This document shows positions 1 through 61,785 of a stretch of DNA of 64,000 bases, in pieces. Under the pieces are notes generated by a model. The model saw nothing but the letters and a program-made list of their open reading frames with translations. It had not been told where the DNA came from and made no database searches. The DNA comes from Raillietiella orientalis (taxonomy: Eukaryota). Every line of letters begins with the position of its first letter. Position 1 is the stretch's first letter. Position numbers and translations under genes: made by a program. The stretch is from NCBI GenBank assembly GCA_036172245.1, contig JAYWIR010000044.1, forward strand, positions 1,426,001 to 1,490,000, in the 5' to 3' direction.

Positions 1-3000
1 CGTCTGCATGGCTCCCTCTGGTTTCCACGAAGCGATTGCGGTCATCATCGCTGCCTATGCATCGACTCGGGAGCACACCAGAAAAGGAGAATTCGATTAA
101 ACGAGGACGGACATTCCAGTGCTCCTCCATCATTCATTCAACCGGATGCAGCTTCCCCAAAAAGCTACGTCTCGTGAGTTCCGGAAACCACGCGGAACTC
201 GAGCACGAAGCCTCAAGGGCTGCAACAGCAGCCACTCGCACAGCAGCACCTTCGCATGCGGAGCAAGATGCCCTGAACGGCGCTCAACACTCTCCAACCA
301 CCGGCGACAAAGAGCTTCCTAAGACCCGCAGCCGAGTTTGGCACAAGCGGGCAAGGGACCGAATCTCCTCGCAGCCGGGCGCAGCATCTCGCCCGTACAC
401 CTGCACAGGAAAGCGACGGACACTTTTGACTTTTCAATCCGGACGTCAATCGTCGACACTCTCGAAGGATCGAATCAAAGCAACGGTGCACTCCGAATTT
501 CCATTGCATTCCCTTCCACGAAGACCAGCCCCTCTCTCCCTCTTCTCCTTCCATGACAGCTATCCATGCGAATGCGCACTCCCCGCAAGGTATTCGAGGG
601 AAATCTCATGTACCATCAGCATGTGGGTCCCTCCTTTCCTCCGTCCCTCGGGCTTCTTTGACCTCACACTTGCCGCCCCACATTCCCATTTTCGCCGCCA
701 CATTTCGCTGCTCTTAGCGAAGACCGCAGTAGGGCGATGAAGTCTTCCTTGTCCACCGCGTGCTTCTGCATTTCATGGGACCACAGATGTGAACAGTCAG
801 GAAGTCCACGGGTGGAAACTTCGTGCCTGTCAACTGCTGTGCTTTTGGATGGAGTAGAGGAAATTTGGATGAGCCAAGCTGCTTGGGGTCCACTGCAGGT
901 GTCCACCGAACGGTTCGCGCTTCTTAAGTGTTTCCCGCAAGAGTTGCTCACTTGGAAAACGTGGTTCACTCTTTCTAGCCTGCATGGACACGCATCGTTT
1001 TCACGAGGCCCCTGTGCAAAGGGTTTTCCCGGTTTCAAAAACCTCCCGAACTCGAAAGGAAAGTAAGTACATTGACGCAGCAGCAACGACTTCAGAACTC
1101 GCGTGAAGGAGGGAAGAACGCTGTTACTGGAGTTTGCGCTGCTTGCGAGCAGGGCCTGGTTAAGCTTTGCAGCCGTTCCGTGGTGCCTATTTTGCATGGG
1201 GCCCGTCTGGAGGTGTGAGAGCGCGCACGCAATTCCCCTTGCAGATCCTGGTAATGCAGCCGGCATCATTCAGGATGAAAGCAATTGCGTCGGCTCGATC
1301 CCCATCTCCTCAAAAAGGTGCTGGGATCCTTAGAGGGCGCAATCCTTCTTTGGAATCACCTACCCTTCCTGTCGCGCATTGCTTTCTGGTCGTGAGGAAG
1401 GGCTGCAACTTGTCCGGTTTCTTCGATCCGTTTGCTTGCAGGTTGCTTCCTCTGTTTGTTTCCATGGAAAACCTCGGTTTCCTCCGTGGATCCTGCCCGA
1501 AGCGAACCGAATGCGTGCAATGGCACAAGCCGACAACGGAAGTTTCCAGAAACGGTTCGCAGGATTCGTGTGGGGTGGGATGGAACATCCTCAGAGCGTG
1601 AAGCGCAGTGACGGGAATCAACATCCCATCCTCGTCTGGCTGCTCGTCCTCAGGATCTTCGAGCGATGGAAGATCCACTGGTTTCCTGCGTCGTAAGCAC
1701 CACCTCTTCGGCAGGGTGGGAAGTCTGAGAGCTGAATACGAAAGGAACAAGATCCCGTGATGCAAATTTTTGAGCAACCCTTGCATCCGGCAGCCAGGGC
1801 AGCTTGTCGGTGATTTTGATGTGATTTTCTCCTACCACGCTGCTCGGCTCTGAGCCACATAGAGCTGAAACATGAGCATGGCATCGCAGAGACTTGAGAT
1901 ATAGCGATTACCGGTACTGAAATGTGGCATTTCCAACTCTTGGTCACAGAAATCGAGTCACTCCAGTGGTTTTCCTGTGTTATGAAGAATGCATCAGCTT
2001 CGTGTTCTGAAGAAAAAGTTTTCCAAAGGCACGAAATTTGCTGTTCCCATTAACTGCCCAGAAGGAAAGAGCACATTTCCCATACTCTGAAGTTTTCTAC
2101 CAGTCACCATGGCAGTAGGCTTTATTGCATGCAGGGACTTCTTGAGCATTGCCATGTTGGTAATGCAGCCGATGAGGAAGTCTCTGTTTTAAGGTTCCCT
2201 TTGCATTTGTTTGGTCATGTGGTGGATGGCAATGTGTGGTGGCAACTGGAATCTGTTCGTGGTTCCCATTTCTCCCTTGTGTATTCTCAACACTGCGTTG
2301 CGATCCATAGAATTTTTGCATCTCGACATTCCATGTCCGTGGAATAGCCTGTTTTCCACCTGCAACCCTGTTTAGAAATCCCAGATCTCCATCTCCAGGG
2401 AGGGTCTGCTTCTGGTTTCTTTCCCTTAGATTTCGTTTTGGAATCATTCGGCCTTCACTCTTGAAGCCATCTTGTGGTTTGCATCTGCATAGAATGTGAC
2501 TGCAGTGTGTGCATGAAAGAGCGCCAGAAATTGCATCCTGTGGAAACTCCTGGAAAAATTCCGGCATCATCATTTTGGATTAGCTGAAAGGTGCGGTGCA
2601 GTGATGGGCCTGGCTAGTGATGCTCTGCAGTACAGCGAATTCTCTTGAGCTCTGTCGCTAGCTACTTGAAGTGGTGATACGAAGAAGACAAAGAATCCAT
2701 GCTGGACAGCATGTTCCTGGTAGCGTTTTACTTTCCGTTTTTTCCCGTTTCTTCCTTTGTCGTGAGGTATTTGCTCTCTTCTTTCATCCCGACTCGGTTT
2801 GCCATTTCCCATCTCTCAAGAAAAAGTGGCTCACCCATTCGCTGTGTTTCCTCTTGTGCATATGCACAAACATCCTAGCTACTGCAGATTTGTTGGCAAA
2901 ATCCCAGTTCGGGTTCAAGCACTGCAGTGCACCGTGCGTGGTGGATGCAGTAACTGCGTGTCTCCTTCCTGCAGAGCTTCTCTCCTCCTCACACCGCATG

Positions 3001-3848
3001 CATAGCTATGCCATTATCCGTTAGGATCGCATCCGGATTGCTTTTGCGAGGAGGCTGTATTCCGAAGTACCATTCGAGCCTGCAGGGATATCAGATGCTC
3101 GGAACTTTCTCAGTCAGGGAAAACCGGATCGGTTTGTGGCTGGAAGGATGCACACGTTCGAAATGAGGTTTGCTTCAGCAGAGGAGTGTGACGACAGCAT
3201 GCTTTCAAACAAAGTGACAGTTCGTGTAGATACGCATCAGCGTTTCTGTTGGCATGGTTTCAACCTGGAAACTCGTCCCTGTTTGTTGAAGAAACGGCTT
3301 TTGACAGGACTGCTACCATCCTGCGCTTTGCTCCATGAAACTTGAGCAGCGTTGCTTGGAATGCTAAAGTAGGGCGGCCATCGGCATGGGATCCTGGTTT
3401 CCCTCAGGTTGGATTGCCTCTCCCGCAACGAGTCTGGGAAACAACTACCAAGTGTGCAATGGTTTCGTTATGGGGTTGTGAATGCAAACGGGGATATTCC
3501 AGGGTTTCCAGGAATTCGAGGCATCGCGACCTGGCTGCTGCTTTCCGTTTCGCCCACCGTGGCTACAGTTTGAGTGCGCTGAACGATCCTGAATCTTATG
3601 GCAATGCAGTTCCGGATGGGATCCACATCCACACACCTCTTGACATAAGAGTGTGCCACGTTGATGTTTGCGTGGAATGCTTGAGATATGCGAGTTGGTA
3701 TAGCAGTGTACGTTGCCACCCGGTCACGCCGGGGCGTTCATTGTAAACTCTCTTTACAATTCGTGGTACAAGGCTCCACTACGGCCAACACAACAGGACC
3801 TGTCGGGTCGCCGGTTCGCAGACCGGCGCGACTCTCCTCGGCAGCGGA

Positions 3849-6429
3849 AGGGGGTGGGGGGAAAAACAAAAAGAGAAATACAAACAGAAAAACAAAAAAT
3901 AGTTGGAGGGCAGGGAAGGGATCACGGTCCACAGGGAGGAGGGTCCATCCTTTCCAGGATGCCCTCGAGGATGATTCCCAGGTGGGACCATCTGGTTGCA
4001 AGCCGCAGGTAGCGGACCGCGAGTTCGACGGCACCCCTCTCGTGGCTCGGTCTTCTGAAATCGCTCCAGCTCGTCACGATCCCTCGGATGCAGCAGAGTG
4101 CTGCCAGGGCTGCGGCTGGTCGCAGGGCATCCCGCATGAAAAGAAGCCGAAATACGTCTCTGGGCTGGCTGCCCTCCTGCAGCCGTAGGGAGGTACCAAG
4201 ACGCTCCCACAGGGGTCGGAGAGCAGCACAATCAACAAGGAGGTGGGGGAGCGATTCCCGCTCCCCACACCTGATGCAGGAGGGATTCACTCGACCACTA
4301 GTCCAGTGGTGGCGGCGTGCGTTGCAGGGTAGACCCCAATGAAACAGCAGAAGCACCGACTCCTGCCACTTCAGGGTGAGGATCCTCGATCCAATAAAAT
4401 CCGGGGGCCACTTCAGATCATCCATCGGGATGCCGAGCAGTTCGCCCCATCTCTTCAATCCACGCGGGAGGACACTTCGGGTGGTGGCGCCGGCCAGCTG
4501 CGCCGTGTTCCAGCCGCTCAACATCTTCTCTCTGCCTGCGATTCGGCAGGAGAATTGCCGCATAGGCATGCGGCTGCTGGAGAGCGCCCTCCTCTGGAAG
4601 GGCATCGCCGTAGCAAGGGGCGTGGTCTCGGCCCACGTGCACCGGGCGGGACACTGCAACATGGACCGCAGGCTGCAGCGGGCGCGGTTGTAGAATCGCA
4701 GGCAGTTGCAGTTGTCATCTTCCTTTGCATTTAACCTCGCCCACGTTCCAACAGATTCCTCCAGCCATGCGGAGGAGTTGGCGGGGCTGCATACCATCCA
4801 GCCGTTCTCCTTAGCCAGGGTGGCCACGCGTCCAAGGAGAAGGCCGCATTTCCTGATCTTCGAGCCACGGCACAGAAGATAAGACGCGAGACCTTCCGTC
4901 GCGGATGCACGGCTGGCAAGGAGGTGGGCCGGAACGCAACACGGTGAGCTCCATGACTCGATGGCCAAGGTGCGCCATCGCAGCTGTATCTCCGTTCGCT
5001 CCAGCGTCAAGAGGCCGACACCGCCATCCCGACGCGGAGCACACAAGTCCATCAACAGGACTCGGGGCCTCCCTCTTCCCCAAAGGGCGAACCTGAGGAG
5101 GTCCTTCCTCCGTTTTTACAACTGCGGCGGGACGGGGCAAACAAAAAGCAGGGGGCGGAGGATGGGAGCCGCGAACGCGTTCCACACCGCGGCCCCTTCC
5201 GGAAGGAGAAACTTGTCTTCCAAGAACGGGCCGATCGCCAACTCTACTTTCCGGAGACGACCTGACCAGTCTTCCGAAGGGCAATAGTCCCCCAACGGCA
5301 CACCAAGGTACTTCAAGCACCTTGCCGTGGGGATCCCCAAACGGATCCAGTCAGGCCGTCCAGCACCGTCGCACCAACCGCTACCATCGATGACTTCGCC
5401 TTATTTACCCGTAGTGCACTCCCACGGCTTAGGAGATCGAAGAAATACTCGACTGCGGCTGCCGGGACGGACATGGGCAAAAAAAGCAGATCATCGGCGT
5501 AAGCCACTACGGCGGGCGTACTGGGGCCCGAGCTCGGCAAGGCAGCCAAAGTCATCCTGTACGCTCTCAGCAACAACTCAAAGTAGGCGCTGAAGAGCAG
5601 GGGACTGAGGCTATCGCCCTGCCTTATGCCCCGGCGCGCCGTACACCTGTTGACTGCTGAAAGAAACGTTGATTATGGCGTTGCGCCAGCAGGTGTGCAG
5701 GTAGGTTAGCAGGGAGGGTGAAAAGCACATGCGACCCAAGAGCTCCAAGAGAAGCTCCTGGTCCACGCAGTCGAACCCCTTTTGGAGATCGACCGCGAGC
5801 GCTAGGGCCCCCTTCTCCGCCCCGGTGTCCCTTCCCTGCCCGGCCGGCGCCCCCAAAGCGGGGTAGCCATTCACACGCTTTCGTTCATGTTCACTACTCT
5901 GCACATGTGCTCGCGAAGAACAGGTTGGCCTCCATACTTCGCCCGGGAACAGCGTAAGTCTGTTCCGGGCTAATTATGGAGTCTGACACCTGTCCTAAGC
6001 GCGACGCCCACAGTCCGGCTATCAGCTTGGCGACCGTGTTCACAATTGTGATCGGACGCCAGTTGCTGAGTCCTCCGAGGTCTCCTCCCTTGGGAAGGAG
6101 CCTCACTCTGGTTCACAGAAACGAGGCGGGTACATCCCCTTCGTCTCGGATCAGCCTTGTCAACTGAAGCACCAGGAGTGCCTACTCAGCCGCGAAGCAT
6201 GGGAAAAACTCCGCTGGCAGGCCGTCCTCCCCTGGTGCTTTCCGCCTCTTGAGCCTTTTATTCCCGGCGAGAATTTCGCCGGTCGTAAAAGGCTCGTCGA
6301 GGCTTTCCTTCTCCTCCTCCCCTATTGCCGGGGCACCATCCGCAAGCAAGCGCCGGGAGGCGCCTCGCTCCGGGGGCGCCCAGGCGTAAAGGCAGGGAGG
6401 GAGAAGGGTGTGGAGTGTACGGTAGACTA
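3849..6429 (-). mobile_element. Mirror copy of the decayed L1/Tx1-like retrotransposon
   Basis: ORFs 5894..6106, 5611..5904, 5313..5576, 5116..5340 and 3922..5055 (all minus) carry the same RT and CCHC motifs with the same disruptions. Only 2 substitutions seen relative to the other copy (4137, 5528). Confidence 0.92.
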
Positions 6430-7196
6430 TCGATCTGACGGGTCAACTGCGCATCGAGGCTTTGCGGTCACTGCTGCGCTTCACACTTGCGAACAGAACG
6501 ATCCTTTTCGTTCCCTGCGGCAGGCGGTGTCTGAAGCCTTCGTGCAGGCACTGCCAGTGTGGTGCGGCTCTTCCGCTTCCTCTGCATTGAAGCCATCGAA
6601 GATAAGCCGCTACGGCTTCACGGAAGAGGAGAGTGGGAAAGCGGCTGCTTTCGAGACGCATTTGCTGTAGGAAAGGCCTTGCGAAAAGATCTTCCGAAAG
6701 ATTTTCACTTGACCGTCACAGGCACCAAGCTCTTCGGAAGAGGCTACACATCCGACAGCATCTCTTCGTTTCTTTTTGTCCGACATGTACGTAAAGGAGT
6801 TTGGAAGTGTTTTGCAAGGAACTTGCGCACGAATGCGATGTGATGCCTGTTCGCTGTGCTCACTCTAGAGGACTGGTTCCAGTGCTTCCGTGATGTGAAA
6901 ACGGCGTCTTTCGCGAACTTTGCTGCTGACCGTGGGGACCATCAAGATTTTCCTTTTTTGCGCTCAAAGTTCGGGGCGTCAGGCTCGCTGCGGTGGAAGT
7001 GTACAAGAAATAGATGGTGTGCAGAACGGATGCTCAATGCCAAACTCGCCTCTTTAGAGCAGCATTTAGAGCGTCTCCAAGCGTCTCCATGGAACCAGGT
7101 AACCACTCCAGTTCCTTCCCATCCCACCTCACCTGGACACCTCCTGATGCAGTCGGTTACAAGATTTAGAAAATTCGAGTACGTTCGTGACTTCGG

Positions 7197-7234
7197 GGGA
7201 AATGCCCGTGCTGCGTGCAGCACGGGCATTTCCC
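7197..7234. repeat. Perfect 18-bp-stem palindrome with 2-nt centre (left arm)
   Basis: GGGAAATGCCCGTGCTGC-GT-GCAGCACGGGCATTTCCC read directly. Confidence 0.95.
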
Positions 7235-10200
7235 AACATATTTGTTTCGTGTATTGGTTTTCGTGAATGGCATCATCCATCTCCACGAGAGCTTGCAAGC
7301 TTCCATCATCCCTCTATAGGAAGTTTTCGATTCAGCCGCTACGAAGAAAGTGAGGAAGGAGCATCGGGCCAGCCTCGACACTCTGGATTCGGGCGGGATT
7401 GAGGTGCACTTCCGTGAACGTGACCACCCAAGTTCCGCAACCACGAGCTTCTCTGAGCGCTCCATTCGTCTCTGGTCTCGACGGACAGCCGGATGCAGCT
7501 CCTGCATTCCCCATGGCAGCGGGACCAAACGGATTGTGGCGCTCGTTTCGCGGGGTGCGGTGTCCATGGCGCGCGGTCGTGTGGGCGAAGCTTGAAAAAA
7601 GCAACTCTCGTGGAAAGAGAACTCGTCGGAATTGGGAAGAGCATAACATCCCATTCCGAAATTTCACCGGATTGACGCTGAGAATCATCTGGAGTGAACT
7701 CGTGATTTCGTCGCGTCCAATCATAAATTCATTCACCGTTCGTCATCGTTCAAGGAAGTTGGGATCGTGTTTCGCTGCGCGTGCTTTGAATCGCTTTGCG
7801 ATTTCAGGAATGTCAAGAAAGATCAACGTGTAATAAGAATGCTCGTTACTGGAGAGGTTCTCCTGCAGGGACGTGCGATCATGCGAACGCCGTTGCATTA
7901 AAGGTCGCGAGGAAACGGAGCTCTCGTCCAATCGCGCCACGTTGTTCTGCTCTCCCGCCGTAGTGCATCCGTTAAGGGAATGTAAAAGCGACCAAGTCCT
8001 CGTCCCAGTCCAGCCTCTGCCACGGTCACCCGCTGGAGCACGCGATTCCCGCAACTGGTGGTCCGATTTCGCGCCCGTATTTCCCGGGGCGTTCATCGCG
8101 TAAAATGATAGCGATTCCTTCTTGCGGTAGAATCGTTGGTTCTGCCATTTGCTAAATCAACACGCTGAACCCGCCAAATACCGGCACCAGACGGAGACGT
8201 TCGCTTCGGCACCGAAGGGGATGGGAAAACCGAAAGCAACAAGGAACCAACAAAAAACAGAGGGAAAGCTTCCCTCTTTATAAAGGGGGCGGCCGAATGT
8301 TGAAATCGAGGAAGGGATTACTTCGCGCTGCTCGGCGTCCTCTGCATCCTGTCCTCTATGCTGGCAAGTTCGCTCGGTGCGTTTCCCAGGTGAGCCCATC
8401 ACGTGGCGGTTCTCAGCAGAATTCTCGATCTACGCGTGGCTTCTGGACTTTTTCGGCCGAGTTCCAGGCCGCCATTACGTCTCCAAGACAGCACCGAACT
8501 TCAAACGACGCGGCTGGAGGCAGTACGGAGACATGCACGAGGGGGAGTTTCAAAAGATCTCCGGGGCACCGACCGGGACCCGAAGGGTGGTCTCTAGGCG
8601 ATTCCAGGCGGTCGGAGGGAAGCACTGTCAGGAACTCGATGCTGGAAGGTCTTCTTCATTCCGCTCCCGTCACAATTTACACTCGCACTCCCCGGCTTGC
8701 AGCGGCGAAGGCGCGCGTTGCACGGGATTCCCCAACGCAAGACCAGCAGTGCCCTCTCCTGCAAATTAAGGGAAGCAGAAGAAATCGCCGTTCCGGGATG
8801 CTGGAGGTCAATTCGCGCCCTCTGGAAGGTTGGCGATCAGCTCGACCTAGCTGCGTAAGAGTTCTCGGGATGAAACACTAGGGCATCGCAGAGCCCGTGA
8901 TTTCTCGAGGGGTCCGCACCCAGAAGTTTCTTGCTTGCCGCAACGCCGCAGGACACCTCCCACCTCCCATACCGTAAGGTCGCCACCTCCTCCTTCATCC
9001 CTTGAAGAGGACAGGACCGCGAATAGCTAGGGAAAACAAAGTTAAGAGCATCCTTTGCGGGCTGCGGGCAATCCCTTGCAGCGAGAGACGTGCTTCTCGG
9101 CCATTCTGCAGACAGGCGAACTCCGCCTCGCTCGCCCTGTTGATCTCTTCCGTTGCGTCAATTGCATGACCGCTGAAACCATGCAGTACGGCTGTCGGAG
9201 ACCAGTGCTCACCATGAAGTGTCTCGTTTGCAGGTGCACGCTGTGGCGCATCGCCGGTCTCCAGGAACAGTGATGAAGTAGCCAATGTTTTTTTAGCATT
9301 CCCGCCCTGTCGAGCCTGCCTTACTTTTTCCCGAAAGCCCTCTGTGTGGTATTGATCCCGGATCTCTCCTATGCTTGCTTGTTCCTCCATCCATCCTGCA
9401 CGGAAAGTGACTGACCTGAACAAAGTGACCTACCCTAACCTATCTAACCTGACCTGTAACCAGATTTTCGGGGAGTTGGGGAAGAAGCGAATCCCGTTGC
9501 GACTGGCGCGGGCGTACGAACCAAGGTGCGCGAGTGGGCTGTGGTTGACCGGGTGGCGTGGTAGAAGTGACCCTCTCAATGCGAAATTCATGGAACGTTC
9601 GGCGTTTGCGTTGTTCCACCGTGGGTGGTCGCACTCCGCGGCGAGAGGACGGTTGATGAGAGGACGGTCCATCTTTCCCGACGGCCTTCCCTGGGAGAGA
9701 TGACGAGAGCCACGGTGGTCATTTCGCTATCGTCCGAAGATTTGAAAGCGGAGTCACCAGTTCGAGCAGCGAGCAGCACTGCGCAGCTCAGGCTTTCTGC
9801 TCAACGGAGTGGAATCGCCTCTCTTCTTTGCTTCCGATGCCACGATGTCACGATGTGCGGCCGTCTTCCAGTGCAACTGCTGCCAGGGAAATTCTACGGA
9901 TGATCGGTAGGTGTTCCAATGTGGTGTTTCTTCTGGCGAAGAAAACGTGAGCCCTTCGTTTCCTTTCAAACTCACTTGCCCCTTGCGTTGAGGTGGCATC
10001 TGAATTCGAATGTCTTTATTCCCAACGTCTGTTCTGAAGAACAGCAGGGTTGTGGCATGGTTTGCAGAATCGTTCCCTCATCCTGCACTCTGCAGTCCGC
10101 CTTCTTTCGTCCATTCATCCGTTATCCATGACGCGTATACGTCACGGATGGGCATCTGCCATCACCATTCACCGAAGGAGATTCACGTTGCGCGCACTTG

Positions 10201-11645
10201 AGTGCGTGTCGAGCTGCCACCCTGGTACCACTCTGGTACAGCGCAGAAGACGTTCCGCGGAACCGTTACGCAGATTTGCGGACAGGAGCTCCTTTTGAAG
10301 GGACAAGGAGAAGCTGAGGCAACAGAAGTTTCCGTACTTCGCCAACGGGCGTCCTTCTTTTCCTTTCTTCGATTGATTGATCGAATCGACGAGCCTGAAT
10401 TGGTAATGCGGCCTACGGATCATGGAACGGATGTGGGTCTTCGTTCTCTTTTCCGGAAAATCAACGGTTTTTTCCAAGGCGTGCGTTGGTGCCTGCGGGT
10501 TCTCCCGAACCGCGAATCCATGCTGTTCCGTGGTCCATGGTCGCGCTGCTCATCTACTGCTTTCCCTTAATGTGAACGATAGGTGCTCATCCCTCTCCGG
10601 AGTGTGCGACACTGCACTGACCGCACGTGTGCTGCGGTAAAGGCAACCGAAATTCTCGCCGTTGGCTCGTAGCCTGGTGGCATGAAACCTCGCGCAATCT
10701 GAAGAGGTATCCGTGCTGAATGATGGTCTTCCCTTTTTGTCCGTCTTTGTCCCGAAGCAGCTGTCGAAGGAGACGAATTTCGAGCAAGGAAGGCTTCGCA
10801 ACCGACTGTGGTTCAATTCACCACCGACAGTCACGCGAAAATGCATCGTCCATTTGCGGAGAGATGAGCGAGCAGAGCTTCGGTTTCACGGATCGCTGTC
10901 AGGAGGGATTCTTACCCTACGCTTGAACGCCTTCGTTCCTGCCGGAAGCGAAGGTCTGTCCTCCTCCCACGGACTTCTCGGTGCGCGGGCGTACTCTTTT
11001 TCCGGATTCTGTTGTGCTTCGGGTTGCGAATGCCCGGCTTCATGTGTGAGTTGCTCCATAGGACCCAGGGCCATCCCGAGAGCCTCTTTTCAGAATCGGC
11101 CGTCCGAATGGCGACCCGGAGTTTCATTCCGCCCGCCGCCTGCAGAAAACTCAGTCGGGGCTTCTTGAAGACATGGCGCGTGAAAGAAGGACAGTTCGAT
11201 GCCAGCGTGCACTTTCTGAGGAACATCATACTTCCCCTACCAGGGTAATCCTGCTACCTGGATGCTCCGATGTGACGAGCCGATGGGTTCTCTCTCGTGT
11301 CTGCAATCCTCCGAGGTGCATCCTCTTTGTCCGGGAAGCTCGAGCTGCAAGTCGCGAGGAGCGATCCGACTTCTCCACGAGAGGACGGTTCGCACGTTGA
11401 CCTGTGAGTGTCGCCGTGTTCCCGCTGGATGGCTCCGCAAGTGCGGAGGCGCGTCTGCTGCTCCGTTCCAGCATCGCGTAACGTCATTTCGGATGGGGCT
11501 GGCGCAACGTTACACAGTTACAAAGCTTTCCGCAGGGCGTGCAGTATAATGCCCTGGCAGATGGGTAATAATTTGCGGCACGCCGTGTCTCCCGTGCTCC
11601 TTCCGGGCAGCGTGCCACCAGGGTACGCGTGGCGTATGGACGTGG

Positions 11646-15600: not shown

Positions 15601-15752
15601 GCCGTAGTCAAGTGGCGACTGGACTGACGGGGCGATCGTTAGCACACCCACTTGTGACAACAAGGGGACGCCGGTGCCCGTGCTCCTGCCCGTAACGACG
15701 CCCACGGCGTTCCCTTGGACCTGTGCGTCTTTCCGCGTTTCTGCCGGCAGGG

Positions 15753-30600: not shown

Positions 30601-31394
30601 TGACCGTGGCAGAGGCTGGACTGGGACGAGGACTTGGTCGCTTTTACATTCCCTTAACGGATGCACTACGGCGGGAGAGCAGAACAACGTGGCGCGATTG
30701 GACGAGAGCTCCGTTTCCTCGCGACCTTTAATGCAACGGCGTTCGCATGATCGCACGTCCCTGCAGGAGAACCTCTCCAGTAACGAGCATTCTTATTACA
30801 CGTTGATCTTTCTTGACATTCCTGAAATCGCAAAGCGATTCAAAGCACGCGCAGCGAAACACGATCCCAACTTCCTTGAACGATGACGAACGGTGAATGA
30901 ATTTATGATTGGACGCGACGAAATCACGAGTTCACTCCAGATGATTCTCAGCGTCAATCCGGTGAAATTTCGGAATGGGATGTTATGCTCTTCCCAATTC
31001 CGACGAGTTCTCTTTCCACGAGAGTTGCTTTTTTCAAGCTTCGCCCACACGACCGCGCGCCATGGACACCGCACCCCGCGAAACGAGCGCCACAATCCGT
31101 TTGGTCCCGCTGCCATGGGGAATGCAGGAGCTGCATCCGGCTGTCCGTCGAGACCAGAGACGAATGGAGCGCTCAGAGAAGCTCGTGGTTGCGGAACTTG
31201 GGTGGTCACGTTCACGGAAGTGCACCTCAATCCCGCCCGAATCCAGAGTGTCGAGGCTGGCCCGATGCTCCTTCCTCACTTTCTTCGTAGCGGCTGAATC
31301 GAAAACTTCCTATAGAGGGATGATGGAAGCTTGCAAGCTCTCGTGGAGATGGATGATGCCATTCACGAAAACCAATACACGAAACAAATATGTT

Positions 31395-31432
31395 GGGAAA
31401 TGCCCGTGCTGCACGCAGCACGGGCATTTCCC
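31395..31432. repeat. Perfect 18-bp-stem palindrome with 2-nt centre (right arm copy)
   Basis: GGGAAATGCCCGTGCTGC-AC-GCAGCACGGGCATTTCCC read directly. Confidence 0.95.
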
Positions 31433-32199
31433 CCGAAGTCACGAACGTACTCGAATTTTCTAAATCTTGTAACCGACTGCATCAGGAGGTGTCCAGGTGA
31501 GGTGGGATGGGAAGGAACTGGAGTGGTTACCTGGTTCCATGGAGACGCTTGGAGACGCTCTAAATGCTGCTCTAAAGAGGCGAGTTTGGCATTGAGCATC
31601 CGTTCTGCACACCATCTATTTCTTGTACACTTCCACCGCAGCGAGCCTGACGCCCCGAACTTTGAGCGCAAAAAAGGAAAATCTTGATGGTCCCCACGGT
31701 CAGCAGCAAAGTTCGCGAAAGACGCCGTTTTCACATCACGGAAGCACTGGAACCAGTCCTCTAGAGTGAGCACAGCGAACAGGCATCACATCGCATTCGT
31801 GCGCAAGTTCCTTGCAAAACACTTCCAAACTCCTTTACGTACATGTCGGACAAAAAGAAACGAAGAGATGCTGTCGGATGTGTAGCCTCTTCCGAAGAGC
31901 TTGGTGCCTGTGACGGTCAAGTGAAAATCTTTCGGAAGATCTTTTCGCAAGGCCTTTCCTACAGCAAATGCGTCTCGAAAGCAGCCGCTTTCCCACTCTC
32001 CTCTTCCGTGAAGCCGTAGCGGCTTATCTTCGATGGCTTCAATGCAGAGGAAGCGGAAGAGCCGCACCACACTGGCAGTGCCTGCACGAAGGCTTCAGAC
32101 ACCGCCTGCCGCAGGGAACGAAAAGGATCGTTCTGTTCGCAAGTGTGAAGCGCAGCAGTGACCGCAAAGCCTCGATGCGCAGTTGACCCGTCAGATCGA

Positions 32200-34780
32200 T
32201 AGTCTACCGTACACTCCACACCCTTCTCCCTCCCTGCCTTTACGCCTGGGCGCCCCCGGAGCGAGGCGCCTCCCGGCGCTTGCTTGCGGATGGTGCCCCG
32301 GCAATAGGGGAGGAGGAGAAGGAAAGCCTCGACGAGCCTTTTACGACCGGCGAAATTCTCGCCGGGAATAAAAGGCTCAAGAGGCGGAAAGCACCAGGGG
32401 AGGACGGCCTGCCAGCGGAGTTTTTCCCATGCTTCGCGGCTGAGTAGGCACTCCTGGTGCTTCAGTTGACAAGGCTGATCCGAGACGAAGGGGATGTACC
32501 CGCCTCGTTTCTGTGAACCAGAGTGAGGCTCCTTCCCAAGGGAGGAGACCTCGGAGGACTCAGCAACTGGCGTCCGATCACAATTGTGAACACGGTCGCC
32601 AAGCTGATAGCCGGACTGTGGGCGTCGCGCTTAGGACAGGTGTCAGACTCCATAATTAGCCCGGAACAGACTTACGCTGTTCCCGGGCGAAGTATGGAGG
32701 CCAACCTGTTCTTCGCGAGCACATGTGCAGAGTAGTGAACATGAACGAAAGCGTGTGAATGGCTACCCCGCTTTGGGGGCGCCGGCCGGGCAGGGAAGGG
32801 ACACCGGGGCGGAGAAGGGGGCCCTAGCGCTCGCGGTCGATCTCCAAAAGGGGTTCGACTGCGTGGACCAGGAGCTTCTCTTGGAGCTCTTGGGTCGCAT
32901 GTGCTTTTCACCCTCCCTGCTAACCTACCTGCACACCTGCTGGCGCAACGCCATAATCAACGTTTCTTTCAGCAGTCAACAGGTGTACGGCGCGCCGGGG
33001 CATAAGGCAGGGCGATAGCCTCAGTCCCCTGCTCTTCAGCGCCTACTTTGAGTTGTTGCTGAGAGCGTACAGGATGACTTTGGCTGCCTTGCCGAGCTCG
33101 TGCCCCAGTACGCCCGCCGTAGTGGCTTACGCCGATGATCTGCTTTTTTTGCCCATGTCCGTCCCGGCAGCCGCAGTCGAGTATTTCTTCGATCTCCTAA
33201 GCCGTGGGAGTGCACTACGGGTAAATAAGGCGAAGTCATCGATGGTAGCGGTTGGTGCGACGGTGCTGGACGGCCTGACTGGATCCGTTTGGGGATCCCC
33301 ACGGCAAGGTGCTTGAAGTACCTTGGTGTGCCGTTGGGGGACTATTGCCCTTCGGAAGACTGGTCAGGTCGTCTCCGGAAAGTAGAGTTGGCGATCGGCC
33401 CGTTCTTGGAAGACAAGTTTCTCCTTCCGGAAGGGGCCGCGGTGTGGAACGCGTTCGCGGCTCCCATCCTCCGCCCCCTGCTTTTTGTTTGCCCCGTCCC
33501 GCCGCAGTTGTAAAAACGGAGGAAGGACCTCCTCAGGTTCGCCCTTTGGGGAAGAGGGAGGCCCCGAGTCCTGTTGATGGACTTGTGTGCTCCGCGTCGG
33601 GATGGCGGTGTCGGCCTCTTGACGCTGGAGCGAACGGAGATACAGCTGCGATGGCGCACCTTGGCCATCGAGTCATGGAGCTCACCGTGTTGCGTTCCGG
33701 CCCACCTCCTTGCCAGCCGTGCATCCGCGACGGAAGGTCTCGCGTCTTATCTTCTGTGCCGTGGCTCGAAGATCAGGAAATGCGGCCTTCTCCTTGGACG
33801 CGTGGCCACCCTGGCTAAGGAGAACGGCTGGATGGTATGCAGCCCCGCCAACTCCTCCGCATGGCTGGAGGAATCTGTTGGAACGTGGGCGAGGTTAAAT
33901 GCAAAGGAAGATGACAACTGCAACTGCCTGCGATTCTACAACCGCGCCCGCTGCAGCCTGCGGTCCATGTTGCAGTGTCCCGCCCGGTGCACGTGGGCCG
34001 AGACCACGCCCCTTGCTACGGCGATGCCCTTCCAGAGGAGGGCGCTCTCCAGCAGCCGCATGCCTATGCGGCAATTCTCCTGCCGAATCGCAGGCAGAGA
34101 GAAGATGTTGAGCGGCTGGAACACGGCGCAGCTGGCCGGCGCCACCACCCGAAGTGTCCTCCCGCGTGGATTGAAGAGATGGGGCGAACTGCTCGGCATC
34201 CCGATGGATGATCTGAAGTGGCCCCCGGATTTTATTGGATCGAGGATCCTCACCCTGAAGTGGCAGGAGTCGGTGCTTCTGCTGTTTCATTGGGGTCTAC
34301 CCTGCAACGCACGCCGCCACCACTGGACTAGTGGTCGAGTGAATCCCTCCTGCATCAGGTGTGGGGAGCGGGAATCGCTCCCCCACCTCCTTGTTGATTG
34401 TGCTGCTCTCCGACCCCTGTGGGAGCGTCTTGGTACCTCCCTACGGCTGCAGGAGGGCAGCCAGCCCAGAGACGTATTTCGGCTTCTTTTCGTGCGGGAT
34501 GCCCTGCGACCAGCCGCAGCCCTGGCAGCACTCTGCTGCATCCGAGGGATCGTGACGAGCTGGAGCGATTTCAGAAGACCGAGCCACGAGAGGGGTGCCG
34601 TCGAACTCGCGGTCCGCTACCTGCGGCTTGCAACCAGATGGTCCCACCTGGGAATCATCCTCGAGGGCATCCTGGAAAGGATGGACCCTCCTCCCTGTGG
34701 ACCGTGATCCCTTCCCTGCCCTCCAACTATTTTTTGTTTTTCTGTTTGTATTTCTCTTTTTGTTTTTCCCCCCACCCCCT
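32200..34780 (+). mobile_element. Decayed, 5'-truncated non-LTR retrotransposon ORF2 (L1/Tx1-like reverse transcriptase plus C-terminal CCHC knuckle)
   Basis: Motifs occur in canonical order across frames: KAPGEDGLPAEFF, LLPKGGDLGGLSNWRPITIVN, ISPEQTYAVPGRS, AVDLQKGFDCVD, GIRQGDSLSPLLF, AYADDL, KYLGVPL, LCAPRRDGGVGL, CIRCGERESLPHLLVDC. In-frame stops near 32445, 32514 and 33511 plus about three frameshifts. No endonuclease domain or ORF1 seen upstream. Pyrimidine-rich tail after the stop at 34707. Ends are approximate. Confidence 0.92.
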
Positions 34781-37700
34781 TCCGCTGCCGAGGAGAGTCG
34801 CGCCGGTCTGCGAACCGGCGACCCGACAGGTCCTGTTGTGTTGGCCGTAGTGGAGCCTTGTACCACGAATTGTAAAGAGAGTTTACAATGAACGCCCCGG
34901 CGTGACCGGGTGGCAACGTACACTGCTATACCAACTCGCATATCTCAAGCATTCCACGCAAACATCAACGTGGCACACTCTTATGTCAAGAGGTGTGTGG
35001 ATGTGGATCCCATCCGGAACTGCATTGCCATAAGATTCAGGATCGTTCAGCGCACTCAAACTGTAGCCACGGTGGGCGAAACGGAAAGCAGCAGCCAGGT
35101 CGCGATGCCTCGAATTCCTGGAAACCCTGGAATATCCCCGTTTGCATTCACAACCCCATAACGAAACCATTGCACACTTGGTAGCTGTTTCCCAGACTCG
35201 TTGCGGGAGAGGCAATCCAACCTGAGGGAAACCAGGATCCCATGCCGATGGCCGCCCTACTTTAGCATTCCAAGCAACGCTGCTCAAGTTTCATGGAGCA
35301 AAGCGCAGGATGGTAGCAGTCCTGTCAAAAGCCGTTTCTTCAACAAACAGGGACGAGTTTCCAGGTTGAAACCATGCCAACAGAAACGCTGATGCGTATC
35401 TACACGAACTGTCACTTTGTTTGAAAGCATGCTGTCGTCACACTCCTCTGCTGAAGCAAACCTCATTTCGAACGTGTGCATCCTTCCAGCCACAAACCGA
35501 TCCGGTTTTCCCTGACTGAGAAAGTTCCGAGCATCTGATATCCCTGCAGGCTCGAATGGTACTTCGGAATACAGCCTCCTCGCAAAAGCAATCCGGATGC
35601 GATCCTAACGGATAATGGCATAGCTATGCATGCGGTGTGAGGAGGAGAGAAGCTCTGCAGGAAGGAGACACGCAGTTACTGCATCCACCACGCACGGTGC
35701 ACTGCAGTGCTTGAACCCGAACTGGGATTTTGCCAACAAATCTGCAGTAGCTAGGATGTTTGTGCATATGCACAAGAGGAAACACAGCGAATGGGTGAGC
35801 CACTTTTTCTTGAGAGATGGGAAATGGCAAACCGAGTCGGGATGAAAGAAGAGAGCAAATACCTCACGACAAAGGAAGAAACGGGAAAAAACGGAAAGTA
35901 AAACGCTACCAGGAACATGCTGTCCAGCATGGATTCTTTGTCTTCTTCGTATCACCACTTCAAGTAGCTAGCGACAGAGCTCAAGAGAATTCGCTGTACT
36001 GCAGAGCATCACTAGCCAGGCCCATCACTGCACCGCACCTTTCAGCTAATCCAAAATGATGATGCCGGAATTTTTCCAGGAGTTTCCACAGGATGCAATT
36101 TCTGGCGCTCTTTCATGCACACACTGCAGTCACATTCTATGCAGATGCAAACCACAAGATGGCTTCAAGAGTGAAGGCCGAATGATTCCAAAACGAAATC
36201 TAAGGGAAAGAAACCAGAAGCAGACCCTCCCTGGAGATGGAGATCTGGGATTTCTAAACAGGGTTGCAGGTGGAAAACAGGCTATTCCACGGACATGGAA
36301 TGTCGAGATGCAAAAATTCTATGGATCGCAACGCAGTGTTGAGAATACACAAGGGAGAAATGGGAACCACGAACAGATTCCAGTTGCCACCACACATTGC
36401 CATCCACCACATGACCAAACAAATGCAAAGGGAACCTTAAAACAGAGACTTCCTCATCGGCTGCATTACCAACATGGCAATGCTCAAGAAGTCCCTGCAT
36501 GCAATAAAGCCTACTGCCATGGTGACTGGTAGAAAACTTCAGAGTATGGGAAATGTGCTCTTTCCTTCTGGGCAGTTAATGGGAACAGCAAATTTCGTGC
36601 CTTTGGAAAACTTTTTCTTCAGAACACGAAGCTGATGCATTCTTCATAACACAGGAAAACCACTGGAGTGACTCGATTTCTGTGACCAAGAGTTGGAAAT
36701 GCCCCATTTCAGTACCGGTAATCGCTATATCTCAAGTCTCTGCGATGCCATGCTCATGTTTCAGCTCTATGTGGCTCAGAGCCGAGCAGCGTGGTAGGAG
36801 AAAATCACATCAAAATCACCGACAAGCTGCCCTGGCTGCCGGATGCAAGGGTTGCTCAAAAATTTGCATCACGGGATCTTGTTCCTTTCGTATTCAGCTC
36901 TCAGACTTCCCACCCTGCCGAAGAGGTGGTGCTTACGACGCAGGAAACCAGTGGATCTTCCATCGCTCGAAGATCCTGAGGACGAGCAGCCAGACGAGGA
37001 TGGGATGTTGATTCCCGTCACTGCGCTTCACGCTCTGAGGATGTTCCATCCCACCCCACACGAATCCTGCGAACCGTTTCTGGAAACTTCCGTTGTCGGC
37101 TTGTGCCATTGCACGCATTCGGTTCGCTTCGGGCAGGATCCACGGAGGAAACCGAGGTTTTCCATGGAAACAAACAGAGGAAGCAACCTGCAAGCAAACG
37201 GATCGAAGAAACCGGACAAGTTGCAGCCCTTCCTCACGACCAGAAAGCAATGCGCGACAGGAAGGGTAGGTGATTCCAAAGAAGGATTGCGCCCTCTAAG
37301 GATCCCAGCACCTTTTTGAGGAGATGGGGATCGAGCCGACGCAATTGCTTTCATCCTGAATGATGCCGGCTGCATTACCAGGATCTGCAAGGGGAATTGC
37401 GTGCGCGCTCTCACACCTCCAGACGGGCCCCATGCAAAATAGGCACCACGGAACGGCTGCAAAGCTTAACCAGGCCCTGCTCGCAAGCAGCGCAAACTCC
37501 AGTAACAGCGTTCTTCCCTCCTTCACGCGAGTTCTGAAGTCGTTGCTGCTGCGTCAATGTTCTTACTTTCCTTTCGAGTTCGGGAGGTTTTTGAAACCGG
37601 GAAAACCCTTTGCACAGGGGCCTCGTGAAAACGATGCGTGTCCATGCAGGCTAGAAAGAGTGAACCACGTTTTCCAAGTGAGCAACTCTTGCGGGAAACA

Positions 37701-40700
37701 CTTAAGAAGCGCTAACCGTTCGGTGGACACCTGCAGTGGACCCCAAGCAGCTTGGCTCATCCAAATTTCCTCTACTCCATCCAAAAGCACAGCAGTTGAC
37801 AGGCACGAAGTTTCCACCCGTGGACTTCCTGACTGTTCACATCTGTGGTCCCATGAAATGCAGAAGCACGCGGTGGACAAGGAAGACTTCATCGCCCTAC
37901 TGCGGTCGTCGCTAAGAGCAGCGAAATGTGGCGGCGAAAATGGGAATGTGGGGCGGCAAGTGTGAGGTCAAAGAAGCCCGAGGGACGGAGGAAAGGAGGG
38001 ACCCACATGCTGATGGTACATGAGATTTCCCTCGAATACCTTGCGGGGAGTGCGCATTCGCATGGATAGCTGTCATGGAAGGAGAAGAGGGAGAGAGGGG
38101 CTGGTCTTCGTGGAAGGGAATGCAATGGAAATTCGGAGTGCACCGTTGCTTTGATTCGATCCTTCGAGAGTGTCGACGATTGACGTCCGGATTGAAAAGT
38201 CAAAAGTGTCCGTCGCTTTCCTGTGCAGGTGTACGGGCGAGATGCTGCGCCCGGCTGCGAGGAGATTCGGTCCCTTGCCCGCTTGTGCCAAACTCGGCTG
38301 CGGGTCTTAGGAAGCTCTTTGTCGCCGGTGGTTGGAGAGTGTTGAGCGCCGTTCAGGGCATCTTGCTCCGCATGCGAAGGTGCTGCTGTGCGAGTGGCTG
38401 CTGTTGCAACCCTTGAGGCTTCGTGCTCGAGTTCCGCGTGGTTTCCGGAACTCACGAGACGTAGTTTTTTGGGGAAGCTGCATCCGGTTGAATGAATGAT
38501 GGAGGAGCACTGGAATGTCCGTCCTCGTTTAATCGAATTGTCCTTTTCTGGTGTGCTCCCGAGTCGGTGCATAGGCAGCGATGATGACCGCAATCGCTTC
38601 GTGGAAACCAGAGGGAGCCATGCAGACGCTGTCCAATAACCGGACAGCCGTTGTCCCTCTCCCTCTATTGCTGACCTGATAAACGTCCGGGGAACGTAGT
38701 GTCAGGTGAGCCTGTGTGTTGCTGGTGGGGAACTGTTGTGTGGATGGTCCTCGGATGCAGAGGGAACGAGGGAGAGTCCAGCGCAAGCAAAGCAAGCTAG
38801 AAACTCTTGTTAGCGAAAGTGCTCCTGGATGCTTTGATAGCTTCGGGGCCATCTGGGGGTGTTCGAGGATTGGGCAGCTTCCGCGAGGTATTCGTGTGTA
38901 CGAATTTTCCGAGCTGGAACTCTGCAGAGAGGCTGCGCGGTGTGGTTTATGATAAGATTCTGATTTGTTCCACTCAGGCCATACTTGGGAACCGCATGTC
39001 AGGTGCATTGGCGTTTACATTTGCATGGACGTGGCCTGCTTGTAGGAGGGGAGAGGGGTCTGCAAGGTGCGGTTGTGCGTTCTCCGGGTGAGTCCTTCTC
39101 GTTTTCCTCCTTAGGAAGCGAAGAGGAAATCGATGCCGTTCCTATCGCGCCATCCTCTCCAGCTCTGGAGTCGTTCCATGCCGACGGAGTCCCGCGGGGA
39201 CGGCACAGAGCTGCTGACGGCGCAGTTGGCGACAGGGAGTCTTCTGGGCGAAGAGGGACTGAAGAAAAACACATCTGGGGTCGCGCGCTGGGATCCGGTG
39301 TCCGGCTGCGGAACGTTCTCGCTGATCTCGGAGTTCGATGTGCAATCCACAAGCAGGTGATAAAGAAATTCTAGGTCTTCGCACTTGCAACTGTTTGCCC
39401 TCCCTGTGTTTATTTGTATCTTCTTAAAGTGGTGGCCGCGACGCCGCGATGCACCTGATGGGGAGGTTGCGAGTGTTCGGGCTCTCATGGGCTGCCAAAT
39501 CAGATTCTCGTGAGGAATTCGGGTGTAAAAAGTGGAAACATTCTTTTTTGCAGGGCTATTGAGGTCGGTCAGGTGCAACCTCTTATCGGCTTGTGCTTGA
39601 ATTCACTTCGCAAGAGTGCTCCCACGTTGCTGGCTGCTGCCGTTTTGCATCCTCAGCGCTGCGGCAAGGGAGTTTGTCTTTCCCCACTCAGTCTTCACGA
39701 GGTGAACGATGATTCCCCCTACAGGGAACAACTGTTGTAAAGGAGGTACGGCAACCGCTGCGATCACTCCGATGTGGGCTCGTTGATCTTCGCGTGCATG
39801 GCAACTGTTTCCTTTGACCGGTCCGTACGTTTTGCTGAGTTGCAGGGGATGCAACCGTTCTCTTCCGACAAGTAGCCAACCGCAAGAGCTGGAGTTCGCA
39901 TTCGGACATGTCGCGGTCATCTTCGTGAACCGTGCTGAGGTTTTACATATGAATGTTATCAACAGTGGAAAAAAATTGAAAAGAGAAGGAAAATATAATT
40001 GTGCTTGATCATTGCAGACATAAATTCGCTTTTGTTTTTTGAAGTGATGATACCAAAGTGTGTATGATATTCTCCCTATAATTTAGTAAAGGTCTTTGTT
40101 TAGTTTTGATTCTAAATTCGGAATTTTGGATTTTTACACGTTTTCCAGACAATTTTCCTTTTTTGAAAGTTAATCCTTTTGTGAGTTTCGGCACTAAAGA
40201 ATCTTTTCGTGCCTTCAAAACCGATTTTGAAATGAAAAACTACAATTTAAATTTTCAGATACTAATTTTATTTGATCGACCGCTATGTAGTCCAAATTTT
40301 CAAATTTCATGTACATGGTGATCGATCTGCATTGATTTGGGACCTTGATACACTCTTCCATACCTTGAAAGTGAATACGAATAAAATAAATTATTAAAAA
40401 AGTCATTGCACATGTTGACTTCTATATTGATTTTGTTCAAAACCGAGGAGAACACATGATATCAGAGTCAATTTTCCTGTCAACTCTTTCTGAAAACACA
40501 ATTTTGTGTATCCAGCAACATGATGTGTATATTGTATAACGCATCCATTAGTAAGTGCAAATATCAGAATTTGTAGGAAAACGTGATTTAATCAAATATC
40601 TGTTTTTTTCAGAGCGTTTGGTTCTGAGCCAATTTTTTCATTTATTATCCGTCCCAGATTGATTGGAGATATATACTTCACTAAAGAACGTTCTGCTTCC

Positions 40701-61678: not shown

Positions 61679-61785
61679 AATGTGTAGCAGGTACTCTTCT
61701 CCATACTGAACATTTTGAGCTAAATAGAAAAAAGCACAACTACCACCGAAGGCAACAGGTTCCATGCAATAAAAATAATGGCTCT

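What the first reader, a model, noticed from the sequence alone, without database searches (positions are those of the whole stretch)
1..38628. Giant palindrome: arms of at least 17 kb at about 99.9% identity around a 4.7-kb spacer
Seen: 1-16971 is the reverse complement of 21658-38628 with a constant offset (no indels) and only 15 substitutions spotted by eye (a lower bound). Established: such structures arise by fold-back/template switching or breakage-fusion-bridge, and can be maintained by arm-to-arm gene conversion, as in primate Y palindromes. They are also a classic artefact of chimeric long reads or MDA. Inference: if real, this is a very young or actively homogenised amplicon next to compact housekeeping genes, and read-through transcription would give a multi-kb dsRNA hairpin.
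Basis: partly seen in the sequence, partly recalled or inferred. Interest (0 to 1): 0.8.

Follow-up and report, generated by a model that had tools for sequence, protein, structure and literature searches.

The report
Near-perfect 17-kb inverted duplication, unverified
The window really does hold two mirror-image copies of at least 17 kb separated by 4.7 kb of unique DNA, but without the raw reads it cannot be decided whether this is a young natural inverted duplication or an assembly error.

Summary
Bases 1-16971 are the reverse complement of 21658-38628, with 15 substitutions, no indels (99.912% identity) and a unique 4,686-bp spacer. The window start cuts the left arm, so the arms may be longer.

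The arms hold no recognisable gene, only a frameshifted LINE remnant present in both copies. The right flank carries RPL36, mir-9 and the 3' end of a DENND4/Crag gene. The host is a bilaterian invertebrate with no close relative among the named proteins.

The 15 differences avoid homopolymers and 8 of them lie in the outermost 2 kb. They look like true variants, either paralogous or allelic, not consensus errors.

No genome, sequencing run or independent assembly could be reached. The junctions and copy number are therefore untested.

I favour a real fold-back or template-switch duplication, kept alike by youth and/or arm-to-arm conversion (about 0.5). The main rival is a chimeric-molecule misjoin of the second haplotype (about 0.4). 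If real, it is a new member of a known kind. Interest is modest.

The parts
1..16971 (.). Left arm, cut by the window start. Its outer end is unknown.
   Evidence: reverse complement of 21658-38628 with 15 substitutions and 0 indels. GC is 57.7% and CpG observed/expected is about 0.7-1.1.
16972..21657 (.). Unique spacer of 4,686 bp
   Evidence: no blastn similarity to the arms, to the right flank or to its own reverse complement; none of the spacer ORFs of 70 aa or more has a Pfam match. GC is 55.8%.
21658..38628 (.). Right arm. It runs without a compositional break into the RPL36 flank.
   Evidence: a domain of positive GC skew (+0.14 to +0.25) spans about 37.8-39.6 kb and straddles 38628/38629.
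3925..6112 (-). Decayed LINE reverse-transcriptase remnant in the left arm
   Evidence: RVT_1 in ORFs 5316-5672 (E 1.6e-6, 28.5 bits) and 5897-6112 (E 1.9e-4); weak zf-RVT in 3925-5115 (E 0.0045). All three are below Pfam's cut-offs. The three pieces lie in three different frames, so the element is broken.
32517..34704 (+). Mirror copy of the same LINE remnant in the right arm
   Evidence: Coordinates obtained as 38629 minus the left-arm coordinates. It differs from the left copy at only 2 sites (4137 and 5528). The LINE was therefore already decayed when the arms were duplicated or last homogenised.
16966..16985 (.). Junction A (arm/spacer, 16971|16972)
   Evidence: The arm ends in GATCGC, and GATCGC recurs 2 nt into the spacer. 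6 of the next 9 bases still match the other side.
21644..21663 (.). Junction B (spacer/arm, 21657|21658)

Best explanation
A genuine inverted segmental duplication (palindrome) in the genome of an unidentified bilaterian invertebrate. Two arms of at least 17 kb of non-coding, GC-rich DNA lie around a 4.7-kb single-copy loop. Proposed origin (inferred): a fold-back or template-switch event, in which a broken or stalled 3' end annealed about 4.7 kb back on its own strand and copied it outward. The loop of the fold-back became the spacer. The 99.91% identity reflects youth, arm-to-arm gene conversion, or both. No function is indicated. The arms hold no recognisable gene, so it is most simply a neutral structural variant. 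Shown here: the structure, the substitution-only differences, the uniqueness of the spacer and the gene-poor content. Inferred: that both junctions exist in native DNA, the mechanism, and conversion.
For: (1) The 15 arm differences are all substitutions. None of the 55 homopolymer runs of 5 or more differs between arms, and none of the differences is a change in homopolymer length. Long-read consensus errors would include indels. A hifiasm assembly of MDA HiFi data showed 21.4 mismatches and 17.4 indels per 100 kb (preprint 10.64898/2026.06.11.730069, passages). So two distinct biological copies exist. (2) The spacer size fits natural fold-back duplications: 766-70,466 bp, median 3,428 bp, in 21 sequenced junctions (PMC3907307, passages). 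It lies in the tail for MDA inverted chimeras, whose distance is usually under 10 kb with a peak at 250-300 nt (PMC9984789, passages). (3) The spacer shares no inverted similarity with the arms. A graph misjoin through a short inverted repeat is therefore not available, and an artefact would need a chimeric molecule. (4) Divergence rises outward: 0.036% in 6001-16971, 0.075% in 2001-6000, 0.225% in 221-2000 and 1.8% in 1-220 (KS p = 0.006). This is the edge pattern described for conversion-homogenised duplicates (PMC2588116, passages). (5) Arm length, identity and spacer all fall inside the ranges of accepted palindromes: arms 8-140 kb, over 99% identity, spacers 77 bp to 358 kb (PMC8327919, passages).
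Against: No read-level evidence of any kind is available: no genome, and no independent junction. The left arm is cut by the window start. There is no compositional boundary at 38628/38629, so the mirror image may continue upstream over RPL36, mir-9 and DENND4, as a misjoined haplotig would. The mismatch density is highest in the 220 bp next to the window edge, which would also fit a poorly supported contig end. The inner edge shows no raised divergence (no difference in the last 1,939 bp), which the conversion-edge model does not predict. The transition:transversion ratio is 6:9, low for natural variation in many animals. The host has no close relative among named proteins (best DENND4 hit 52% identity). 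That is typical of obscure small animals, which are often sequenced after whole-genome amplification. Published 'palindromes' in an invertebrate draft genome later proved to be scaffolding artefacts of phased haplotypes (PMC8494291, passages). No gene in the arms gives selection a reason to keep the structure.
Confidence: 0.5

Rival explanations
1. Assembly artefact. The locus is single copy. A fold-back chimeric molecule (of the kind phi29/MDA amplification makes, or a rare library chimera) joined the left end of the 'spacer' to the reverse strand 4.7 kb further on. The assembler then walked back along the same locus using reads of the second haplotype. The 15 differences would be allelic SNPs.
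For: Inverted chimeras with jumps under 10 kb are the commonest MDA artefact (PMC9984789). Palindromic reads made up about a third of matched reads in amplified single tardigrades (PMC13265396). hifiasm on MDA HiFi data of C. elegans gave a duplication ratio of 1.24 and 1,753 misassemblies (preprint 10.64898/2026.06.11.730069). The left arm runs to the window edge with no compositional boundary at the mirror point. Substitution-only differences at about 0.09% are compatible with low heterozygosity. The host is a poorly sampled invertebrate. Adineta vaga provides a precedent (PMC8494291).
Against: It is unknown whether this assembly used amplified DNA. A 4.7-kb jump is far out in the tail of the reported chimera distances (peak 250-300 nt). 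Heterozygosity of 0.036-0.075% over the inner 15 kb with no indel would be low for an outbred invertebrate. The monotonic outward rise of differences has no cause under this model.
Confidence: 0.4
2. The visible part is the centre of a much larger real palindrome. Its arms continue upstream and mirror RPL36, mir-9 and DENND4, for example as the product of a breakage-fusion-bridge cycle or an isochromosome-like end.
For: The match reaches window base 1, and a coherent GC-skew domain crosses 38628/38629. The arm end seen here is therefore set by the window, not by biology.
Against: Identity is already falling steeply at the window edge (4 differences in the last 220 bp), which suggests the end of the homology is near. 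No telomere-type repeat is present in the window. Duplicated RPL36 and mir-9 cannot be checked.
Confidence: 0.07
3. A mobile element or integrated linear DNA element with giant terminal inverted repeats and a 4.7-kb core.
For: The overall shape is an inverted repeat around a unique core.
Against: No transposase, integrase, polymerase or capsid domain was found in any of the 220 ORFs of 70 aa or more in arm plus spacer. The arms are not built of sub-repeats. There is no second copy in the window. The arms carry an old host-type LINE remnant.
Confidence: 0.02

Closest known systems
Large palindromes of primate X and Y chromosomes (P1-P8 on Y; 26 on human X)
   Same: Inverted arms over 8 kb at over 99% identity around a unique spacer. 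99.91% identity here compares with 99.97% for Y palindrome P6. The 4.7-kb spacer is within the 77 bp to 358 kb range (PMC8327919 and PMC3723533, passages).
   Different: Those arms mostly carry testis-expressed gene families (21 of 26 on X). Here no gene was found in the arms. The host is an invertebrate, any sex linkage is unknown, and conservation in relatives and ongoing conversion are untested.
Fold-back inverted duplications with a disomic spacer (human constitutional inv-dup; yeast and tumour models)
   Same: An inverted duplication is separated by a few kb of single-copy DNA. The median spacer is 3.4 kb, against 4.7 kb here (PMC3907307, passages).
   Different: Those cases lie next to terminal deletions, translocations or rings, and have 2-8 bp of inverted microhomology measured against an intact reference. 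Here there is no ancestral sequence, no telomere repeat in the window, and the outer end is unseen.
Inverted (palindromic) chimeras of multiple displacement amplification and the misassemblies they cause
   Same: Two segments of one locus are joined in opposite orientation with a jump under 10 kb (PMC9984789; PMC13265396; preprint 10.64898/2026.06.11.730069).
   Different: The typical jump is hundreds of bases. Such a copy should match its template apart from errors, which include indels. Here there are 15 clean substitutions and no indel. It is unknown whether amplified DNA was used.
'Palindromes' of the first Adineta vaga draft genome
   Same: Gene-scale mirror-image blocks in an invertebrate assembly, once read as biology.
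   Different: Those were traced to erroneous scaffolding of phased haplotypes (PMC8494291, passages). The present window has no N gap (0 N), so scaffolding alone cannot explain it.
Conversion-homogenised young duplicates in Drosophila
   Same: Very low divergence in the body of the duplicate and raised divergence toward an edge (PMC2588116, passages).
   Different: That pattern is described for both edges. Here only the outer side shows it, and the inner edge is sharp.

Membership tests
Large palindromic segmental duplication (criteria used for primate X palindromes, PMC8327919) | Inverted repeat with arms over 8 kb | tested here: met
   At least 16,971 bp
Large palindromic segmental duplication (criteria used for primate X palindromes, PMC8327919) | Arm-to-arm identity over 99% | tested here: met
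   99.912%: 15 substitutions, 0 indels
Large palindromic segmental duplication (criteria used for primate X palindromes, PMC8327919) | Both arms present in native DNA (arms at twice spacer depth; both arm-spacer junctions spanned by independent molecules) | not testable with these tools
   No genome held. No run was listed. No independent junction found.
Large palindromic segmental duplication (criteria used for primate X palindromes, PMC8327919) | Ongoing arm-to-arm gene conversion (within-species arm divergence lower than between-species divergence) | not testable with these tools
   No related species or second individual is available. The outward gradient of differences is only suggestive.
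Fold-back inverted duplication (PMC3907307) | Single-copy spacer of about 0.8-70 kb between the inverted copies | tested here: met
   A unique 4,686-bp spacer. Its copy number is not tested.
Fold-back inverted duplication (PMC3907307) | Short inverted microhomology at the spacer/duplication junction relative to the unrearranged sequence | not testable with these tools
   This needs the ancestral or allelic unrearranged sequence. Only a GATCGC recurrence and 6 of 9 matching bases beyond the junction were seen.
Fold-back inverted duplication (PMC3907307) | Adjacent terminal deletion with a healed end, translocation or ring | tested here: inconclusive
   No telomere-type repeats of 3 or more units for 8 motifs in the window. 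The outer end of the left arm lies outside the window.
MDA or long-read inverted chimera misassembly | Inverted join of two segments of one locus less than 10 kb apart | tested here: met
   The jump is 4,686 bp. The range is from PMC9984789.
MDA or long-read inverted chimera misassembly | Junction supported by one molecule or one amplified lineage only, with the locus at single-copy depth | not testable with these tools
   No reads are available.
MDA or long-read inverted chimera misassembly | The second copy differs from the first only by sequencing or consensus errors | tested here: not met
   15 substitutions, 0 indels, and no homopolymer-length difference in 55 runs of 5 or more. The copies are distinct sequences, which could be allelic or paralogous.
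Foldback or giant-TIR mobile element | Element-encoded transposition or replication genes, arms built of sub-repeats, multiple copies | tested here: not met
   No such Pfam domain in 220 ORFs. No internal repeats. No other copy in the window.

The most novel reading that the evidence does not exclude
The palindrome is real, is kept alike by arm-to-arm conversion, and carries no protein-coding gene at all. That would make it a large conversion-maintained palindrome in an invertebrate whose only plausible product is non-coding, for example a multi-kilobase hairpin transcript feeding an siRNA pathway, next to a housekeeping gene and a mir-9 locus.
Probability: 0.06. Interest if true: 0.6.

Novelty: new member of a known kind. 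Interest (0 to 1): 0.3.

Why it matters
If real, this is one more example, from a poorly sampled invertebrate lineage, that fold-back duplication produces large near-identical palindromes outside mammalian sex chromosomes. In this case the arms contain no genes, so selection on arm genes could not explain its persistence. If it is an artefact, it flags a false duplication of at least 17 kb (possibly a whole mirrored contig arm) in a deposited assembly. That would inflate gene counts and could be mistaken for a signature of unusual genome biology, as happened with Adineta vaga. Either way the decisive test is simple and cheap for anyone who holds the reads.

Tried and rejected
- **Whole genome:** none is held, so the sequence upstream of the window could not be read.
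- **Sequencing runs:** none was listed for 16400-22200.
- **Junction A in metagenome contigs:** an exact 26-mer search gave 0 matches.
- **DENND4 relatives in metagenome contigs:** 147 pattern matches, none confirmed.
- **Junction-spanning ORF 21472-22005 against the 5.8-billion protein collection:** this was meant to find independent assemblies that carry either junction. 171 candidates, none significant.
- **Earlier findings of this scan:** nothing for this genome or for look-alike stretches. The 8 listed of the 505 'palindrome arm spacer' notes all concern other genomes (phage, giant-virus or bacterial).
- **Six-frame translation of long stretches for Pfam:** It was replaced by stop-to-stop ORF lists.
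- **Taxon of the host:**
  - The DENND4 exon gives at best 52% identity, to an unnamed Plutella protein, and otherwise 32-53% to molluscs, arthropods, fishes and Hydra.
  - tblastn of six of those hits back on the window adds nothing.
  - The LINE ORF has no hit.
  - The Atlas gives only weak leads.
  - The host is therefore left as 'bilaterian invertebrate'.
- **Coding potential of the longest non-LINE arm ORF (353 aa, 11550-12608):** no Pfam match. Atlas recognition is 894 and the best score 0.75. It is treated as non-coding.
- **'Differences are only consensus errors':** rejected because there are no indels and no homopolymer involvement.
- **'Bacterial or viral insert':** rejected because 220 ORFs gave no domain other than LINE reverse-transcriptase fragments and one weak hit (Inhibitor_I66, E 4.3e-4, below cut-off) that I take as chance.
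- **Telomere motifs:** none found.
Full report
**1. The observation**

The repeat finder reports a single inverted pair in the window, 1-16980 against 21649-38628. I checked every base along the symmetry axis i <-> 38629-i. In 1-16971 there are exactly 15 mismatches and the offset is constant, so there is no indel. From 16972 the match breaks down: mismatches at 16972, 16974 and 16978, then dense mismatching.

Identity is 99.912%. The spacer, 16972-21657, is 4,686 bp. The match runs to window base 1, so the outer end of the arms is not seen and 17 kb is a minimum.

**2. What the DNA is**

The arms are GC-rich (57.7%; local values 50-69%), with CpG observed/expected mostly near 1.

- All 220 stop-to-stop ORFs of 70 aa or more overlapping 1-21700 were scanned against Pfam: 150 and 70.
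- The only matches are two RVT_1 fragments (5316-5672 and 5897-6112, minus strand; E 1.6e-6 and 1.9e-4, both below the curated cut-off) and one weak match, probably chance (Inhibitor_I66, E 4.3e-4).
- A weak zf-RVT match lies in 3925-5115 (E 0.0045).
- These three pieces lie in three different frames, so this is a broken LINE remnant.
- Its mirror copy (32517-34704) differs at only two sites (4137 and 5528). The LINE had therefore already decayed when the arms were copied or last homogenised.
- The longest other ORF (353 aa, 11550-12608) has no Pfam match and a low Atlas recognition score (894; best hit 0.75). Several frames are open over the same stretch, as expected of stop-poor GC-rich non-coding DNA.
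- Rfam finds nothing in arms or spacer, and there is no tRNA.
- Neither arms nor spacer contain tandem or dispersed repeats within the window. The spacer has no similarity to the arms, to the flank or to its own reverse complement.

**3. The neighbourhood and the host**

Of the 261 ORFs of 55 aa or more in 38629-64000, I scanned 57. These covered 38.7-44.8 kb and 55-63.7 kb. The ORFs of the GC-rich 44.8-55 kb block were left out.

- One ORF matches Ribosomal_L36e (E 4.6e-23). Read from the sequence, RPL36 has three coding exons, 41806-41895, 41947-42081 and 42430-42522. It encodes 105 aa, with GT-AG introns of 51 and 348 nt.
- mir-9 lies at 49479-49557 on the minus strand (65.3 bits against a gathering score of 58.6), inside a block of about 66% GC.
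- The 3' exons of a DENND4/Crag gene lie at about 61.7-63.7 kb on the minus strand. The best hits are 32-53% identical and come from moths, bivalves, mites, crustaceans, fishes, a lamprey and Hydra.

The host is therefore a bilaterian animal, evidently an invertebrate, with no close relative among named proteins. Its genes sit in AT-rich, CpG-depleted DNA (31-43% GC; CpG o/e 0.31-0.46), while the intergenic DNA is GC-rich with CpG o/e near 1.

**4. What the 15 differences say**

- All 15 are substitutions: 6 transitions and 9 transversions.
- None is a homopolymer-length change, and none of the 55 homopolymer runs of 5 or more in the arm differs between copies.
- Long-read consensus errors include many indels. 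As one yardstick, a hifiasm assembly of amplified HiFi data had 21.4 mismatches and 17.4 indels per 100 kb (preprint 10.64898/2026.06.11.730069, passages only).
- I therefore reject the idea that the arms are one sequence plus errors. There are two biological versions of this 17 kb, either paralogues or alleles.
- The differences are not evenly spread. There are 4 in 1-220 (1.8%), 4 in 221-2000 (0.225%), 3 in 2001-6000 (0.075%) and 4 in 6001-16971 (0.036%).
- A KS test against a uniform spread gives p = 0.006. The probabilities I computed for single cut-points are post hoc.
- There is no difference in the innermost 1,939 bp.

**5. Is the arm end at the window start a real boundary?**

A domain of positive GC skew (+0.14 to +0.25) runs from about 37.8 to 39.6 kb and crosses 38628/38629 without a break. 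There is also no repeat or telomere motif there. The end of the visible arm is therefore set by the window (or the contig), not by a recognisable biological edge.

This leaves two possibilities open. The left arm may continue upstream, or the contig may start here.

**6. Attempts to obtain independent evidence**

- No whole genome is held.
- No sequencing run was listed, so no reads could be laid.
- An exact 26-mer across junction A has no match in the metagenome contigs, and that collection holds no confirmed relative of the DENND4 exon.
- The ORF that crosses junction B has no relative in the 5.8-billion-protein collection, so no independent assembly carrying either junction could be found through it.
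- The scan's earlier notes hold nothing for this genome.
- The two tests that would decide the matter, junction-spanning molecules and depth, therefore remain undone.

**7. Weighing the explanations**

*For a real duplication:*
- The copies differ by clean substitutions only.
- The 4.7-kb spacer is typical of natural fold-back duplications: 766-70,466 bp, median 3,428 bp, in 21 sequenced junctions (PMC3907307, passages). It is far out in the tail for amplification chimeras, whose distance is usually under 10 kb with a peak at 250-300 nt and an overlap of 5-8 nt (PMC9984789, passages).
- The spacer offers no inverted homology through which an assembler could turn round by itself.
- Divergence rises toward the outer edge, as described for duplicates homogenised by conversion (PMC2588116, passages).
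- Size, identity and spacer all lie within the ranges of accepted palindromes (PMC8327919 and PMC3723533, passages).

*For an artefact:*
- There is no read support.
- The arm is truncated at the window edge with no boundary at the mirror point.
- The highest mismatch density lies right at that edge.
- The inner edge does not show the raised divergence that the conversion model predicts for both edges.
- The host lineage is obscure, of the kind often sequenced from amplified DNA of single tiny animals. In such data palindromic reads reach a third of matched reads (PMC13265396, passages), and hifiasm produced 1,753 misassemblies and a duplication ratio of 1.24 (preprint above).
- The palindromes of the first Adineta vaga assembly vanished in the chromosome-level assembly (PMC8494291, passages).
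- No arm gene would give selection a reason to keep the structure.

*My odds:*
- Real inverted duplication: about 0.5.
- Chimeric-molecule misjoin with the second haplotype: about 0.4.
- The rest goes to a much larger real palindrome that mirrors the flanking genes, and to a giant-TIR mobile element. The latter is disfavoured because there are no element genes, no sub-repeats and no second copy.

**8. Mechanism, if real**

A 3' end at a break or stalled fork annealed to a short complementary stretch about 4.7 kb back on the same strand and was extended outward. The loop became the spacer.

- The junction shows a GATCGC recurrence and 6 of 9 matching bases just inside the spacer. Without the unrearranged sequence, microhomology cannot be scored.
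- The sharp inner edge, the absence of indels and the absence of arm-specific insertions point to a recent event or to efficient conversion. The outward gradient would favour conversion with a nearby outer edge.
- All of this is inference.
Nothing here tests it.

**9. Novelty and score**

Large near-identical palindromes with kilobase spacers, fold-back duplication and inverted-chimera misassemblies are all well described. If real, this is a new member of a known kind, notable only for gene-free arms in an invertebrate. If not, it is a routine assembly error. Interest: 0.3.

My statements about papers rest on passages retrieved with term searches. They do not rest on whole texts or supplements. 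Other titles were seen only in search listings.

Noticed in passing
window 41806-42522 (+): Complete RPL36 gene. Three coding exons (41806-41895, 41947-42081, 42430-42522), 105 aa, with GT-AG introns of 51 and 348 nt. It sits in 27-35% GC DNA directly beside intergenic DNA of 53-58% GC.
   Followed up: yes
window 49479-49557 (-): mir-9 precursor (Rfam RF00237, 65.3 bits, E 1.9e-10). It is embedded in a roughly 10-kb block of 58-67% GC with CpG o/e near 1.
   Followed up: partly
window 61743-63664 (-): 3'-terminal exons of a DENND4/Crag-type gene. The best database identity is only 52% (an unnamed Plutella protein distinct from Plutella Crag), and otherwise 32-53% across many phyla. The host lineage therefore seems unsampled among named proteins.
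   Followed up: partly
window 40935-41395: A stretch of about 460 bp that aligns to its own reverse complement at 73% identity (an imperfect hairpin-type or MITE-like element). It lies in the AT-rich DNA just upstream of RPL36.
   Followed up: no
whole window: Strongly two-phase composition. Genes lie in AT-rich, CpG-depleted DNA (for example 42-44 kb: 36% GC, CpG o/e 0.31; 62-64 kb: 43% GC, 0.46). Non-genic DNA is 55-69% GC with CpG o/e about 1. This is the reverse of the usual vertebrate pattern and would fit gene-body methylation in an invertebrate.
   Followed up: no
window 37800-39600: A domain of about 1.8 kb with strong positive GC skew (+0.14 to +0.25) straddles the outer end of the right arm. 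A 270-aa open frame (37889-38701, minus strand) also crosses that point. No Pfam match.
   Followed up: partly
window 61403-61427: A perfect run of 25 T, intact in the assembly. Together with the unbroken RPL36 and DENND4 exons, this suggests good base-level quality.
   Followed up: no
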